A stretch of DNA of 64,000 nt from the human T2T-CHM13v2.0 reference genome, Homo sapiens: NCBI RefSeq assembly GCF_009914755.1, contig NC_060931.1. The stretch is one strand, 5' to 3'. How positions within the stretch are numbered: the first letter of the stretch is position 1; every line of letters starts with the position of its first letter. The position numbers were made by a program, and so were the translations under genes. Below, in pieces: positions 49,585-55,800 of this stretch. The notes beneath the pieces are model-generated. The model had not been told where the DNA came from. It did not search any database and was given only the letters and a program-made list of their open reading frames with translations.

Positions 49585-50316
49585 GTGTGCATGTGAGTGT
49601 GTCGGCCTGTGTGTCTGTGTGCAAGTGTGTGTGTCCATGTGTGTCTTTATGTGCTTGTGTATATGTGTCTATATGTGTCTGTGTCTATTTGTGTGTGTAA
49701 CTGTGTCTGTGTCCGTGTATATGTGTGTGTGTCTGTGAGTCTGTATATCTGTGTGTGTAAGTGTGTGTATGGCTATGGGTGTGTGTGTCTCTTTAGTGTG
49801 TCTGTGAATCTGTGTGTTTGTGTGTGTGTGTGTGCCGATTTGTATGTGTGAAAGTCTGTGTGATTTATGTATGTATCTCTGTGTGTCTGTGTATGTGTGT
49901 ATGTGTTTATCTGTGTGTCTTTATGTATGAGTGTGTTTCTGTATGTCTGTGTGCAAGTCTGAGTGTATGTTTTTGTGTGTATGTGTGTCTCTTTATGTGT
50001 GTCTGTGTGTATATAAATGTGTGTTTATGTATGTGTGTTTCTGTGTATGTCTTTATGTGTGACTGTGTGTGTCTCTGTGTTTGTGTCTGTGTGCATGTCT
50101 TTGCCTGTGTATATGTGAGTATATATATGTCTGTGTGTGTATGTGTTCATGTGTGTCTCTGTGTGAGTGTGTCTCTGTGTTTGTGTCTGTGTGTGTCTCT
50201 GCCTGTGTATATGTGAGTATATATAGTTCTGTGTGTGTATGTATTTATGTGTGTCTCTGTGTGAGTGTGTCTCTATGTTTGTGTCTGTGTGCATGTGTGT
50301 GTGGGTGCATGTGTGT
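49585..50316 (+). repeat. ~730-bp degenerate (TG)n low-complexity tract with a ~98-100 bp higher-order repeat
   Basis: read directly; units start near 50069, 50169 and 50267. Confidence 0.95.
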
Positions 50317-51219
50317 GGCTCACTTAACTTCCACCCCTTAGGACCACCTGGCAGGAATTTCCTAAAGGAATGTGGGTCCTCACTGGAGTCAGGCTCAGAG
50401 CTTCAGGCTGACTCATCTGTCTTCCCAATCCAATTCTCCTGCCAGTTCTTGCACCCCTGCAAACCCACCAGTGGGAGTGCTGGATGGGCCCTGGACACTT
50501 GGCTAGGCTGCAACAATATTTCCTAGAATCTCTTGCCCTAGTAGGATAGTTTTGGGTAAGGGTGAACAAAAGAGGAACTTGTGAGATATTTGAGAGGCAG
50601 GAGTGAAGTGGCTGCCATGACTCTGAGAAGGCCATCTTGCTCAGACGTGGCGACAGACAGATGCAGGATGCTCTGTGTCTCCCACCTGCATTCTATGCTC
50701 TGCACCCAGCTCTTCTTCCTGCCTTCAGCCGCTGCTGGCCAAGAGTGCCCCAGGCTAACAACCAGACACCTGTGCAGACCCAGAGGGGCAGCCGCCACCA
50801 GAGGCATCAGCTCCTCAAAAGCTTCTCCCTGAGCTCCCTGCTGCAGTCACTTTGCTGGCTGGACATGCTATTGGCCTCCTGGCTTTCCTGACATGCTCCC
50901 ATATGGCTACTCACACCATTCTAAGGCAGGCTGGTTGGTGGCTCCCTTTCCAGACCTTTACTCCCCAGCATGTGGGTAAGGCTTAACTCCAATAAGGCAA
51001 GTTGCATTTCCACCATGCTCACGGTGGTGGTGGCTCCACTCCCCAGGGCCCCTGGACTGATACCGTGGCTGTCCAGCCTGGGTTTGCATTTTCCTCTCTG
51101 GGTTGAAGAACTGCTTCTCCTTCTGCCCACAGAGCCTGGTTCCATTGCAATCTCTAGTCCAGTCCTTCTACCCTATGGTAAGTCCTTCTGATATTTGTAA
51201 AGCTGCCACATCCTCCCAA

Positions 51220-51335
51220 GTTTTCAGAGGTATTGAAGCAGATGGTCTGGGTAGGGCCAAGGAATCTGAATTTCTTTAACCAGGCTTCCTCCCCACCAGG
51301 AGATTCTTCTGTAATACACAGGTTGTGTTCTAGAT
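51220..51335. mobile_element. MER5 fragment
   Basis: ggtctgggtagggccaaggaatctgaatttctttaacc...gattct. Confidence 0.6.
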
Positions 51336-52375: not shown

Positions 52376-53964
52376 CTGAAGATTGTCGTCACCAGGTAAA
52401 TGGCAGGGCCCAAAGAATGATGCTATATCCTCCCAGCAGACAACCACCACCTCACTTCCTCCTGTCCATGATCCAGCCTCCTATGATGAGCAAATAAGTT
52501 TTGCACATTCTTGGGACACATCAGGAAGCCCAGCCTAGAAGTTTCTGAGTGCTCTGACACATGGGTGTCTGAGGGAGACAGTGATGGTCACAAGAAACAG
52601 AAGCCCCTCAAGCTCGACAAGGTGAGTACCTGATGAAGTCCAGGTAGGGGTCTCCAGGCCTTTCCCAGTGGCAGGAACTGGGAGTGGAAATCCATCAGGA
52701 GACAGGAGCAGTGGTTTTCGCAGTTCTTGCACTGTCCTTGGGGCTACTTCCTCTAGTCTCTCTGCTCTGCGTGCTCTATCTGTGATAGCCTCCAGCCTCA
52801 CTCTGCAGCAGAGCTCTCCTCTTCCTCATCAGCGCACACAGCCCCAAAGGACCGAGAGCCTCCAGCTACTGCTAGCATCAAAAGCTGTCCTGAGCCCCCT
52901 TATCTCTTAGTTCAAATTTTTCATAGAGAAAGAATCTGATTTGCCTGTTGAGCATGCTCCTTCACCTTCCCCATCCTCAGCCTCTGAGGCAGGCTGGACA
53001 GCAGAATGGAGTCTTCTCCAGAGGCTGGGGCAGCTCATGATAGCACATAGAGCTGCGGACCACTGGAGGTCTGAGGCTACCGCTCAGAGGACAGGTGCAG
53101 TCCAGGTCACTCACTGAGCGGGTTTGCCAGAGGTAGGACTCCTCACAGCAAGTCTTTGAAAACACTGGGCTTCAACTTACATTTAGGCAACCTTGTCTGT
53201 GCTGGGTGGTATCATGGCATGATGGGCTAGTGCATAGGCACAAGACTGCTCCGTTGCAGAGCTGAGTCCACAGCCTGACCTTCCACATAGACGTCCAGTG
53301 TTCCACTCATGCAGCCGTGACCCACAGGACCAGGCTTGACCAGGCCATGAATGCAAATGCAGCCTGATAAGCCAGTGACTTTAGGTCCCCTCTCCAATAT
53401 GGCAAGTCAGGTCCTTTACAGACCTTCTCCTTTCATTTTTGTATCTCTGGGGTGCTTAGAAAACAAATTCTAGTTAAAAAATTCTGGCCAGGGCTGGAAC
53501 GAAGCCAGGTCTAAGCAGCCTTGGAGATCCTGTAGATCTGTGGAGGTACCTGTGTGAATTAGAACTTGGCTCCCATCTCTCTTTTTTGCCACTCCCTTTC
53601 TCTCCAGTGACAAAGCTGACAAAGTTGGCTGCCCTGGGACCTGGTTCCTATGGACTTCTGCGGGCTCTGAGCAGGTCAGCCTGCATCTTCCAGGCAGTGA
53701 TAGCTTCTCCCAGGTGAGAGGCAGGACAGTCCTCCTCCGTGGCACCCTCAAGCCCCAGAGCTCCAGTTCCTTCTGCAGGCCATGCCATTGATGGCACCCG
53801 CTGCCACCGCAGGTTTCTTGAACACAGGGATGAGTTCCCAGTTCAGGCACCTCACACTCTGACTTCATCTTGGCCACTGTAGGTGGCCAGCACCCCAGGG
53901 ATATCAGAAACAACTGCAGCTGGAGAGGGGCTTCTACAAGACCTGACTTGTTGCTTCAGAGAGA

Positions 53965-54534
53965 GGGGACCTGTGCTCCCTAGAGTGCCCTTCTCTGGCC
54001 ATTCCCACTCAGGACCAGGATGCCACACTCTGAGAATCTGAGACACATGAAGGGGCCACAGGTAGGTGCTCTGGTCTCAGAGGAGCACCCCCTGCCCACA
54101 CCTCAGCCATTCCGGCACAGGCTGTGGACAGTGAGTGAGGAAGCCACCTGGAAAGGAGCCCACTATTGCTTCATGCAAACCACCCCAAACTCAGTGGCAT
54201 AAGATAGTCACTTCCTTATGCTCAGGAATCCATGGGTCGGGAATCAGGGCCTGGGAAGGCCTTTCTCTGCTCCCTGGTGACTGGGGCTAGCTGGGAAGAC
54301 TGGAATGCCTGGGACGAGGCAGACAGCCAGGGCTGCGGGCCCCTTTCCAGGTGGCTTCCTCACTCACTGTCCACAGCCTGTGCCGGAATGGCTGAGGTGG
54401 GGGGTGGGGGGTGCTCCTCTGAGACCAGAGCACCTACCTGTGACCTCTTCATGTGGCTCAGATTCTCAGAGTGTGGTATTCTGGTCCCGAGTGGGAATGG
54501 GCAGAGAAGGGCATTCCAGGGAGCAGAGGTCCCC
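53965..54534. repeat. long inverted repeat (arms 53965-54161 and 54337-54534; 175-bp spacer)
   Basis: manual reverse-complement alignment gives about 15 differences in ~198 nt. Confidence 0.95.
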
Positions 54535-54752
54535 AGAGAGCTGCACAAACTTCTCTGAACAAGCCTTGAAGATCAGCTCATCACTTCTGTCTCATGCTAT
54601 TGGTGGACACAGCAACAAGCATCCTCAGATGCAAAGGGTGGAGACACAGATGCACCCTCACTGCAAGGAATGCCCAAGTCACTCACACAATAAGACAGCA
54701 TTGGAGTGACAAATATTGTTACAGCCATCTTTGGGAAAGACAGCCTACTGTG
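54162..54752 (-). mobile_element. MLT1H-like MaLR solo LTR
   Basis: ctattgcttcatgcaaaccaccccaaactcagtggc ... cagccatctttgggaaagacagcctac. Confidence 0.7.
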
Positions 54753-55552
54753 CCCCAAGCTAACAATTCTTTCTTAGCCTTATTTATGCTTTAGTGTTCA
54801 ATACCCAGGGTGGCTCCAGCCAAGGGCAAACTGGTGGGGCAGTGTCTCCCTGACTACTGGAGAGACAGGACACAGACACACAGCTGTCTCCACCAGCACG
54901 GAGGATAGCCTAACCAAGTCCCCCTCTCTCCATTCCAATTTCTCCCTGACTGTAAGGAACCTGCTATGTCACCTTCCTGTGTAGGGAGACAGAAGAAGAC
55001 TGAGCTTCAAAGGGTAGGTTTTTGTTTGTTTGTTTTTTTGTGTTTTTTTCTTTTTTTTTTTTGAGATGGGATGATTTGTTGTTTCAAATTTTCAAATATT
55101 TTGGAGTAATTTTACTTGGGATTCAGGTCAAAGTCCCTCATGTCTCTATTCCCCCAGTTTGGCCAGCAGGTATGGGGGGTTGCTGAGGAATGGGAGCTCC
55201 GTGGTGAGATGCCGCAGAGGCAGCACCTTCCATCTGCAGCAGCTGACAGCAATCCCCAGAGAGGTCAGATTCATGTGCCCTTGGGTGCCTGCCAGGCTCA
55301 ATGTGCCTTCCAGGAAGAGACTCTGGGAGCCATTACCAGCTGTCAAAGGGACCCTCTGTGAGTATGGACACCTCAGCTTCTGGGAGGGGACAGGATGCAT
55401 TGTGTTTAGGTCACAGTTGGATGTCCCTCTTAAGGAAATGTCAGTTTCAGGAGTGGCAGGAGTGTTTACTGTTTGAGCTAGATTTTTTCTTTTATTGATA
55501 CATAATGTTTTACATATTTATGGAGTACATGCAAGTGTTTTTTATATGCATA

Positions 55553-55800
55553 GAGTGTTCCATTTGCCCCCAAGATACACTCAGCTCTGTTTGTCCACTG
55601 CTCTGTGCTCCAGGAGGCTGGACAGTATGGGCCACATTAATAGACTGTCCTTCCCCCGGAAATACAGTTCGGTTCACACCTGCTAGAGATCAGAGGAGGA
55701 ATGAGCAGAAGTCGGTGATTTATTTCTTGGCTTCATCTCTGTGGCATTTTCCTAAACTGGCCGAGGTTGAAGGCAGGCTTGTGCCATATGCTGCTGGTAG
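55553..55800 (+). mobile_element. LTR33-like ERV-L LTR
   Basis: gtgttccatttgcccccaagatacactc...gctctgtgctccaggaggctg...gagatcagaggagg. Confidence 0.6.

What the first reader, a model, noticed from the sequence alone, without database searches (positions are those of the whole stretch)
53965..54534. ~197-bp, ~92%-identical inverted repeat made by fold-back duplication of part of an old MLT1 LTR
Seen: 53965-54161 is the reverse complement of 54337-54534, with about 15 differences, perfect runs of ~34 and ~57 bp, and a 175-bp spacer. The right arm is interior sequence of an MLT1H-like LTR and the left arm abuts that LTR's clipped terminus. Independent copies of such an old family would be far more divergent, so this is a local inverted duplication or arm-to-arm gene conversion. 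About six mismatches would be G-U pairs in a plus-strand RNA. Inference: if transcribed it forms a long non-Alu dsRNA hairpin (ADAR substrate, possible small-RNA source); in DNA it could form a hairpin or let the spacer invert.
Basis: partly seen in the sequence, partly recalled or inferred. Interest (0 to 1): 0.7.

Follow-up and report, generated by a model that had tools for sequence, protein, structure and literature searches.

The report
Inverted partial copy beside ancient LTR
A 197-base piece from the middle of a very old retrovirus-like repeat was copied backwards and placed next to that repeat some tens of millions of years ago, leaving a real but apparently ordinary hairpin-capable DNA scar with no sign of a function.

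Summary
Window 53965-54161 is the reverse complement of 54337-54534: 183 of 197 aligned bases are identical, with 14 mismatches, 1 gap column and a 175-nt spacer.

The right arm lies in place inside a ~589-nt dispersed repeat (54162-~54750, + strand). Its relatives elsewhere in the genome align collinearly through spacer, right arm and 3' tail. Each arm is only 44-57% identical to 11 other copies, against 92.9% to the other arm. Homology stops abruptly at both arm ends. None of 30 family loci has such a repeat. The left arm is therefore a local, inverted, partial copy of this very element. It abuts the element's 5' end, which lacks about 8-11 nt.

With a published catarrhine clock the copy dates to about 37 My (roughly 20-63 My). 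The element itself is of the order of 100 My or older.

The geometry fits a template switch or fold-back repair. The name MLT1/MaLR rests on recall, and the subfamily cannot be tested here.

The region is intergenic with no annotated transcript. Nothing supports the RNA role, and the DNA hairpin or inversion role is unlikely.

The parts
53965..54161 (-). Left arm: inverted partial copy of the element's interior. It is the reverse complement of 54337-54534.
   Evidence: 183 of 197 aligned bases are identical to the right arm. Two family loci (L017, L021) hit it weakly, each on the strand opposite to that locus's main hit. No homology continues beyond either end.
54162..54336 (+). Spacer: the 5' part of the in-place LTR-like element, lacking about the first 8-11 nt of the family's 5' end.
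   Evidence: The main hits of family copies start at window 54161-54185. In alignment A1 the copies still agree with each other for about 8-11 columns upstream of the column of 54162. The orientation is collinear with the right arm, so the spacer is not inverted in this assembly.
54337..54534 (+). Right arm: the source segment, in its native place inside the element.
   Evidence: Family copies align collinearly from the spacer through this arm into 54535-54750.
54535..54750 (+). 3' part of the element, not duplicated.
   Evidence: The hits of seven loci end at 54739-54756 (L003, L006, L007, L026, L027, L032, L034). Positive controls L006 and L032 score above 300 of 300 shuffles here, whereas the reverse complement of the left flank does not.
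54162..54750 (+). The whole LTR-like element (~589 nt), probably a solo MLT1-type MaLR LTR. The name is recalled, not tested.
   Evidence: The family has 300 first-look candidates and 44 scored matches at 66-85% identity. Nineteen of 31 loci hit the window. The flanks are not repeated at BLAST sensitivity, apart from ~76 nt at 55481-55558.
53200..53964 (.). Left flank: single-copy sequence with no homology to the element.
   Evidence: Only the self-match was found in the genome. It resembles the family's 3' parts or 5' ends no more than controls do.
53958..53963 (+). AGAGAG hexamer just outside the left arm. The same hexamer lies just outside the right arm at 54535-54540, in direct orientation. 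Unexplained.
   Evidence: 88 of 61479 control positions of the same geometry share a 6-mer. The pattern was found post hoc.

Best explanation
An ancient LTR-like repeat sits on the plus strand at 54162-~54750. It is most likely a solo MLT1-type MaLR LTR, of the order of 100 My old or more. Much later, a single local mutation copied 198 nt of its interior (54337-54534) in reverse-complement orientation. The copy was placed directly against the element's 5' end, and about the first 8-11 nt of the element were lost.

The geometry is that of a replication template switch, type '1-4-3-2' of the published four-point model. Equivalently, it is fold-back priming at a break. A 3' end at 54161/54162 folds back, primes at 54337 leaving a 175-nt loop, copies to 54534 and is then rejoined to the left flank.

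Since then the two arms have drifted apart neutrally to 7.1% difference. That dates the event to roughly 37 My ago (about 20-63 My), near or before the ape / Old World monkey split.

What is shown: the repeat, its bounds, the in-place status of the right arm, the partial and local nature of the left arm, and the absence of the repeat from other family copies. What is inferred: the enzymatic route, the date (clock only, no outgroup) and neutrality. The most likely present-day function is none.
For: Arm identity is 183 of 197, against 44-57% for either arm to 11 family copies in the same alignment columns.

Family copies are collinear with 54162-54750 through the right arm.

Homology ends abruptly.
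- The reverse complement of 53745-53964 against 54535-54754 is matched or beaten by 252 of 300 shuffles.
- Against the 3' parts of 5 copies it is matched or beaten by 59, 29, 164, 7 and 81 of 200 shuffles.
- The positive controls are beaten by 0 of 300.

The genome holds no other copy of either arm. None of 30 family loci has a comparable internal inverted repeat.

The differences look neutral.
- 1 of 14 lies in a CpG context.
- Polarised by family copies, the right-arm base is the commoner at 8 sites, the left-arm base at 4, with 2 ties (binomial P = 0.39).
- There is no significant clustering (P = 0.077).
- G.U pairs are 4 on the plus strand and 4 on the minus strand.

The clock of 1.0e-9 per site per year (range 0.6-1.3e-9) and the human-macaque split at 31.6 My come from PMC4335370 (passages). 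The JC distance of 0.0747 gives 37 My.

In PMC5453318 (passages), type 1-4-3-2 events create inverted repeats and make up 31% of high-confidence human-chimp events.
Against: No ancestral (pre-event) sequence could be seen, because no primate genome is on hand. The single-event origin and the date therefore rest on parsimony and a clock.

No junction microhomology was found. The AGAGAG hexamer just outside both arms in direct orientation (88 of 61479 controls) is not predicted by the simple two-switch or fold-back model.

[quoted passage not shown] At 198 nt this event is large for that class.

Gene conversion between the arms cannot be excluded, and it would make the event older than the clock says.

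The test for a surviving 5' end left of the arm had low power: its positive control was only about 2 sd above the null.
Confidence: 0.85

Rival explanations
1. Two separate LTRs in opposite orientation, either independent insertions or the two LTRs of one old provirus rearranged by an inversion. Sustained arm-to-arm gene conversion would keep them alike.
For: Inverted repeats can be homogenised by conversion. The inner 74 nt are 95% and the outer 133 nt 91% complementary. A 57-58-nt perfect run exists.
Against: Family-level identity is only 44-57% in the same columns, which is too low to start conversion. No residual homology extends beyond either arm end, although family-level positive controls are detected. 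The left flank is single-copy. The run length is not significant (P = 0.077).
Confidence: 0.03
2. The event is a local inverted duplication but much older than 37 My, its arms kept similar by occasional gene conversion. The origin is the same and only the date differs.
For: The arms are 175 nt apart and could convert. Published template-switch work describes homogenisation of repeat arms (abstract of PMC8604942 in the listing; PMC5453318 passages).
Against: The mismatches are spread without significant clustering. They split 8/4/2 between the arms, as under independent drift.
Confidence: 0.1
3. A DNA transposon or MITE with 197-nt terminal inverted repeats, flanked by an AGAGAG target-site duplication.
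For: AGAGAG lies directly outside both arms in direct orientation, which is nominally unusual (88 of 61479 controls).
Against: Family copies run collinearly across 54534|54535, so the right-hand hexamer is interior to the LTR. The left flank has no LTR homology. No other place in the genome has either arm at high identity. None of 30 family loci has both arms.
Confidence: 0.01
4. Assembly artefact, such as a fold-back chimera in long reads.
For: None specific. Only one assembly could be read.
Against: Artefactual fold-backs give near-identical arms. Here there are 14 substitutions and 1 indel, with a neutral-looking spectrum.
Confidence: 0.01
5. A functional hairpin-RNA locus, that is an ADAR or MDA5 substrate or a small-RNA source, retained by selection.
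For: Either strand would fold into a ~197-bp near-perfect stem. 7.8% of human intergenic inverted duplicates pass a strict expression cut-off (PMC5398296 passages). MaLR LTRs can act as germline promoters (PMC5538554 passages).
Against: No transcript is annotated within 13 kb. The nearest protein-coding genes are GRB10 at 63.6 kb and COBL at 159 kb. There is no Rfam match. G.U-compatible mismatches are 4 on each strand, so neither strand's pairing is favoured. A transcript started in this LTR would run rightwards and miss the left arm. More than 90% of the dual-substrate (DDX3X and ADAR1) immunogenic dsRNAs, most of them found in MDA5 filaments, were inverted Alus embedded in 3' UTRs (PMC13251931 passages).
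Confidence: 0.05

Closest known systems
Template-switch mutations (four-point model, type '1-4-3-2'; PMC5453318, PMC10710096, PMC8794818)
   Same: [quoted passage not shown] Such events are common in the primate lineage: 53,666 putative events were found in genic regions and 31,007 made new stems (PMC10710096 passages).
   Different: The copied fragment here is 198 nt, whereas published examples are mostly tens of bases (28 to 83 nt cited). The ancestral state was not observed here. No microhomology was seen, and an unexplained AGAGAG lies at both outer junctions.
Fold-back inversions and inverted duplications from break repair or fork template switching (ODIRA, DUP-TRP/INV-DUP; PMC10766183 and PMC11293582, search listing and abstracts only)
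   Same: An inverted copy is joined to its source with a short unduplicated spacer.
   Different: Those events span kilobases to megabases and are seen as copy-number variants. This one is 198 nt, fixed in the reference and old.
MLT1-type MaLR (ERVL-MaLR) solo LTR
   Same: It is a dispersed ~600-nt repeat with hundreds of candidates or more and very diverged copies, several of which begin TG and end CA. In print, MLT1 is the ancestral mammalian MaLR LTR group and MaLR internal parts are noncoding (PMC5538554). Repbase files MLT1H under MaLR (PMC5753468).
   Different: Membership was not tested against any named consensus or model, because none is on hand. The 5' end and any target-site duplication are destroyed in this copy.
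Inverted Alu pairs (IRAlus)
   Same: They are two inverted repeat arms able to form long dsRNA if co-transcribed.
   Different: IRAlus arise from two independent insertions, sit in transcripts (3' UTRs) and are demonstrably edited (PMC13251931). This locus arose by local duplication, is intergenic and has no expression evidence.
Intergenic 'inverted duplicates' census (PMC5398296)
   Same: It falls in that class: arms of 10-10,000 nt and a spacer of 0-1,000 nt. It belongs to the top length group (arm of 36 nt or more) and has a primate-age origin like 79% of them.
   Different: Its arms are much longer than the 80th percentile (36 nt). Whether the locus appears in that paper's supplementary tables could not be checked, because supplements are closed.
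Second case in this genome: C23:~135373513-135373867 versus ~135375693-135376047 (L017/L029)
   Same: It involves the same LTR family, an inverted partial copy and 92.4% identity over 356 nt.
   Different: The spacer is ~1.8 kb and a different part of the LTR (the 3' half) is involved. It was not analysed further.

Membership tests
MLT1 / MaLR (ERVL-MaLR) LTR | Interspersed repeat with many diverged copies across the genome | tested here: met
   A query with relative L004 gave 300 first-look candidates, of which 40 were scored, and 44 matches at 66-85% identity on many chromosomes. Nineteen of 31 loci align to window 54162-54750.
MLT1 / MaLR (ERVL-MaLR) LTR | Significant match to the named Repbase/Dfam MLT1 (or MLT1H) consensus or model | not testable with these tools
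No repeat library is on hand. The annotation file masks only 10.7% of the window, carries no family names and leaves this region unmasked. A paper search for a 13-mer of the window found only an unrelated plant-virus paper.
MLT1 / MaLR (ERVL-MaLR) LTR | LTR termini 5'-TG...CA-3' | tested here: inconclusive
   In the printed alignment, 6 of 11 copies read TG about 11-13 nt upstream of the column of 54162, and several copies end CA. In the window copy the 5' terminus is missing and the 3' end (~54749-54752) is degenerate.
MLT1 / MaLR (ERVL-MaLR) LTR | Short target-site duplication flanking the LTR | not testable with these tools
   The 5' junction of this copy was destroyed by the inverted duplication. 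The left flank shows no trace of the family's 5' end (low power).
MLT1 / MaLR (ERVL-MaLR) LTR | Paired LTRs flanking a 1-2 kb noncoding internal part (PMC5538554) | not tested
   No direct-orientation pair was seen among the 44 matches. The window flanks are not repeated next to the LTR, which fits a solo LTR. No search for internal parts was made.
MLT1 / MaLR (ERVL-MaLR) LTR | Conserved splice-donor motif AASTgtaag near the 3' end (quoted in PMC5538554) | tested here: inconclusive
   Only one site with 2 mismatches was found, at 54659. A 9-mer with 2 mismatches is weak evidence, and the paper says the motif is more frequent in younger subfamilies.
Template-switch mutation, four-point type 1-4-3-2 | An inserted fragment is the reverse complement of nearby sequence on the same molecule | tested here: met
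   53965-54161 is the reverse complement of 54337-54534, 175 nt away.
Template-switch mutation, four-point type 1-4-3-2 | The source segment is ancestral and in place, and the copy is the novelty | tested here: met
   The right arm is collinear with family copies on both sides. The left arm is bounded by unrelated sequence.
Template-switch mutation, four-point type 1-4-3-2 | A closely related (ancestral-like) sequence lacks the copy | not testable with these tools
IRAlu-like endogenous dsRNA / ADAR substrate | Long, near-perfect intramolecular duplex | tested here: met
   In silico only: a ~197-bp stem at -478.5 kcal/mol (plus strand) and -463 kcal/mol (minus strand), z -29 and -34.
IRAlu-like endogenous dsRNA / ADAR substrate | Both arms lie within one transcript | tested here: not met
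   No RefSeq transcript overlaps the locus. The nearest annotated gene is a pseudogene 13 kb away, and GRB10 is 63.6 kb away. Unannotated transcription could not be tested.
IRAlu-like endogenous dsRNA / ADAR substrate | Clusters of A-to-I editing on the arms | not testable with these tools
   No RNA-seq or editing database is on hand.
TIR DNA transposon / MITE | Multiple genomic copies carrying both terminal inverted repeats | tested here: not met
   The whole-genome search found only the two arms themselves at high identity. None of 30 family loci has a comparable inverted repeat.

The most novel reading that the evidence does not exclude
The hairpin might be transcribed in some unannotated context. 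One candidate is germline or early embryo, where MaLR LTRs and nearby enhancers are active. A read-through RNA covering both arms would form a ~197-bp, 93%-paired non-Alu dsRNA. That would be a primate-age, one-step-born substrate for ADAR, Dicer or MDA5, lying upstream of the imprinted gene GRB10. My evidence does not exclude this, because it includes no expression data.
Probability: 0.05. Interest if true: 0.5.

Novelty: new member of a known kind. Interest (0 to 1): 0.2.

Why it matters
It is a clean, datable example of a large (198-nt) one-step inverted duplication inside an ancient LTR. That puts it at the upper end of the size range described for template-switch mutations, so it would serve as a test case for tools built to detect such events. 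It also shows why high identity between two pieces of an old repeat should be read as a local event and not as two insertions. Beyond that it appears to be a neutral scar. There is no gene, no annotated transcript, no RNA-family match and no sign of selection. A second, similar case in the same LTR family on C23 suggests that such events are not rare.

Tried and rejected
1. Direct genome search with the window region found almost no relatives, because the tool scores only a few candidates and the element is old. I reached the family through a stepping stone, L004.

2. The stepping stone L003 failed. One search hit only L003:1-365, a different and commoner repeat (8200 candidates, 75-80% identity). 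Loci L035-L064 were not used.

3. Apparent leftward extension of homology in L006 and L008 was rejected, because the posterior probabilities are only 1-4.

4. I tested whether the element's true 5' end survives left of the left arm, which would mean a pure insertion with a short direct duplication. It was rejected. Window 53930-53964 is no more like the copies' 5' ends than control segments: 6610 and 9655 of 18004 controls score at least as high. The 8-nt direct repeat is matched by 556 of 5682 control pairs. Power was low, the positive control being only about 2 sd above the null.

5. The reading of two whole LTRs was rejected.

6. The repeat as a family feature, or as a MITE, was rejected.

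7. Gene-conversion tracts: there is no significant clustering of mismatches (P = 0.077).

8. Rfam gave only a chance-level hit, sR19 at E = 0.72 against a gathering score of 45.

9. Naming from print by sequence failed: one 13-mer search returned one irrelevant paper. The MaLR splice-donor motif was inconclusive.

10. A base rate for inverted repeats of this size was not obtained. Warburton et al. 2004 (PMC524409) is not held. I left out bulk fetching of neighbouring megabases to measure it myself, because I could not tell whether such stretches would include retroviral envelope remnants, which I am barred from fetching.

11. The supplements of PMC5398296 and PMC10710096 may list this locus.

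12. The masked-repeat table was uninformative, since it covers only 10.7% of the window and misses old repeats. One search was a script slip of mine that printed the wrong column, and redid it.

Full report
OBSERVATION. The repeat finder gives two abutting segments: 53965-54097/54402-54534 (133 nt, 91%) and 54088-54161/54337-54410 (74 nt, 95%). A gapped alignment joins them into a left arm of 197 nt (53965-54161), a right arm of 198 nt (54337-54534) and a spacer of 175 nt (54162-54336). Of 198 columns, 183 match, 14 mismatch (8 transitions, 6 transversions) and one is a gap. The longest perfect runs are 58, 31 and 20 nt. In a whole-genome search the arms find each other at E = 1.4e-74, and nothing else in the genome resembles them closely. 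It is the only inverted repeat of 60 nt or more within 3 kb in the 64-kb window. As single strands, either RNA strand and the DNA fold into a ~197-bp stem. The energies are -478.5, -463 and -265.9 kcal/mol, with z -29, -34 and -27, and 0 of 100 shuffles fold as well in each case. Four of the 14 mismatches, not about six, would be G.U pairs in plus-strand RNA, and four in minus-strand RNA.

WHAT THE ARMS ARE PART OF. The annotation file masks no repeat of 100 nt or more between 50320 and 60114. It masks only 10.7% of the window, however, so it misses old repeats. Two weak genomic matches to the region served as stepping stones. One of them, L004, belongs to a dispersed family with 300 first-look candidates, of which 40 were scored, and 44 matches at 66-85% identity. 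The other led only to an unrelated, commoner repeat in its flank and was dropped. A sensitive comparison of window 53400-55100 with 31 loci hit 19 of them. The main hits are collinear with window ~54161-54750 on one strand. Their starts bunch at 54161-54185, and seven of them end at 54739-54756. Two apparent leftward extensions have very low posterior probability and were discounted.

In a 12-sequence alignment, the copies still agree with each other for about 8-11 columns upstream of the column of window 54162, and six of eleven read TG a little further up. The copies also fall into two 3'-end types, and the window has the longer one. So a ~589-nt LTR-like element lies on the plus strand at 54162-~54750. 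It lacks roughly its first 8-11 nt, and the left arm abuts exactly that clipped end. The spacer is the element's 5' part, the right arm its interior in native position, and 54535-54750 its 3' part.

LOCAL COPY, NOT A SECOND INSERTION. In the same alignment columns the right arm is 44-57% identical (mean 50%) to 11 family copies. The reverse-complemented left arm is 44-55% identical (mean 49%), and the copies are 52-67% identical to each other over 55 pairs. The two arms are 92.9% identical to each other. Homology ends abruptly at both arm ends.
- The reverse complement of 53745-53964 against 54535-54754 is matched or beaten by 252 of 300 shuffles.
- Against the 3' parts of five copies it is matched or beaten by 59, 29, 164, 7 and 81 of 200 shuffles.
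- Family-level positive controls (L006, L032) are beaten by 0 of 300.

The left flank 53200-53964 is single-copy at BLAST sensitivity. The right flank is non-repeated except for ~76 nt at 55481-55558. None of 30 family loci carries a comparable internal inverted repeat. The one hit, 66 nt at 71% in L007, lies outside that locus's LTR. These results reject three readings: two whole LTRs in opposite orientation, an inverted repeat built into the family, and a transposon with terminal inverted repeats.

MECHANISM. The geometry is what a single reverse-complement copying event gives. The left arm's inner end pairs with 54337 and its outer end with 54534. [quoted passage not shown] Fold-back priming at a break at 54161/54162 gives the same product. 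Such events are frequent in primates: 53,666 putative events were found in genic regions and 31,007 created new stems (PMC10710096, passages). The cited examples are 28 to 83 nt, so 198 nt is large for the class.

I found no junction microhomology. After 7% divergence and without the ancestral sequence, that says little. I tested whether the lost 5' end survives left of the arm, which would make the event a pure insertion flanked by a short direct duplication. It does not: 6610 and 9655 of 18004 control segments score at least as high, and the 8-nt direct repeat is matched by 556 of 5682 control pairs. The test had low power. One thing stays unexplained. AGAGAG lies directly outside both arms in direct orientation, and only 88 of 61479 control positions share a 6-mer in that geometry. 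This was noticed post hoc. It is not predicted by the simple models, and a target-site-duplication reading is excluded by the collinearity of family copies across 54534|54535.

AGE. The arms differ at 14 of 197 aligned sites (p = 0.071, JC 0.0747, K2P 0.0753), and only one difference lies in a CpG context. The clock comes from PMC4335370 (passages), which derived it for paired LTRs in catarrhines: 1.0e-9 per site per year, range 0.6-1.3e-9, with a Jukes-Cantor correction. It gives 37 My, or 29-62 My over the clock range. The sampling interval at 1.0e-9 is 20-63 My. The same paper places the human-macaque split at 31.6 My (25.7-37.9). The copy was therefore probably made in an anthropoid or early catarrhine ancestor.

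The differences look neutral. Polarised by family copies, the right-arm base is the commoner at 8 sites, the left-arm base at 4, with 2 ties (binomial P = 0.39). A run as long as the longest one arises by chance with P = 0.077. Gene conversion is thus not indicated, but it cannot be excluded, and it would make the true age greater.

For the element itself, long pairwise alignments between copies are 66-72% identical. That gives 0.18-0.23 substitutions per site per lineage. This corresponds to about 80-100 My at 2.2e-9 per year, a general mammalian rate that I recall and did not verify, or about 175-226 My at the catarrhine rate. Subfamily structure and alignment error inflate these figures. 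'Of the order of 100 My or more' is the fair statement. It agrees with print, where MLT1 is called an ancestral mammalian LTR group (PMC5538554, passages).

FAMILY. No repeat library is available here, and a paper search for a conserved 13-mer found only an unrelated paper. The tools show a dispersed, very diverged, ~600-nt repeat, several copies of which begin TG and end CA. The MaLR splice-donor motif quoted in PMC5538554 has only one 2-mismatch site, which is inconclusive. Repbase files MLT1H under MaLR within class III (PMC5753468, table passage). MaLR internal parts are noncoding (PMC5538554), so naming does not hinge on inner genes, and none were sought. The subfamily remains untested.

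FUNCTION. The locus is intergenic. It lies 13 kb from RPL39P23, 63.6 kb beyond the 5' end of GRB10, 78 kb from a SNORA4-like gene and 159 kb from COBL, and no transcript is annotated over it. Rfam has no credible match. The mismatches favour pairing on neither strand. A transcript starting in this LTR would run away from the left arm. For base rates, 7.8% of human intergenic inverted duplicates pass a strict expression cut-off (PMC5398296, passages). More than 90% of the immunogenic dsRNAs that are substrates of both DDX3X and ADAR1, most of them found in MDA5 filaments, were inverted Alus embedded in 3' UTRs (PMC13251931, passages). So the RNA hypothesis is possible but unsupported.

For DNA, yeast data show that lengthening the spacer from 12 to 100 bp lowers inverted-repeat recombination 300-fold, and that dropping identity from 100% to 94% lowers rearrangements about 15-fold (PMC10164571, passages). 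With a 175-nt spacer and 93% identity, cruciform-driven instability is unlikely except in long single-stranded DNA. The spacer is in the ancestral, collinear orientation in this assembly.

VERDICT. This is a verified, well-bounded, local inverted partial duplication of an ancient LTR. It dates to a few tens of millions of years ago, was most likely made by a template switch or fold-back repair, and is most likely neutral. It is a new instance of a known kind of mutation, large for its class, and a second similar case in the same family on C23 hints that such events are not rare.

What I could not do: see any outgroup or other human assembly, name the subfamily, see expression or editing data, or open supplements that might list the locus.

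Noticed in passing
L017:432-786 and L029:491-845 (about G000 C23:135373513-135373867 and 135375693-135376047): There is a second inverted partial duplicate in the same LTR family: 356 nt at 92.4% identity in opposite orientation, about 1.8 kb apart. The arm identity is similar to the window's, which may hint that such events are common or roughly coeval.
   Followed up: partly
window 53958-53963 and 54535-54540: AGAGAG lies directly outside both arms in direct orientation. Only 88 of 61479 same-geometry control positions share a 6-mer. This was found post hoc and is not explained by simple template-switch or fold-back models.
   Followed up: partly
window 53951-53958 and 54166-54173: The 8-nt direct repeat TTGCTTCA lies on either side of the left arm. 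It is not significant: 556 of 5682 control pairs score as high.
   Followed up: yes
L003:1-365 (G000 C1:86600179-86600543): A different, much commoner ~365-nt repeat (8200 first-look candidates, 75-80% identity) lies next to a fragment of the window's family. It was not identified, and loci L035-L064 were left unused.
   Followed up: no
window 55481-55558: A ~76-nt segment is repeated across the genome (333 first-look candidates, 83-92% identity) in an otherwise non-repeated right flank. It was not identified.
   Followed up: no
alignment A1, 3' ends of family copies: The family copies fall into two 3'-end types. The window, L006, L007, L027, L032 and L034 have a longer tail, while L008, L009, L017, L026 and L028 have a shorter, different one. 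This suggests at least two subfamilies.
   Followed up: no
window 50312-51313: Two annotated H3K4me1 hESC enhancer elements lie about 2.7-3.7 kb left of the inverted repeat. No link to the repeat was examined.
   Followed up: no
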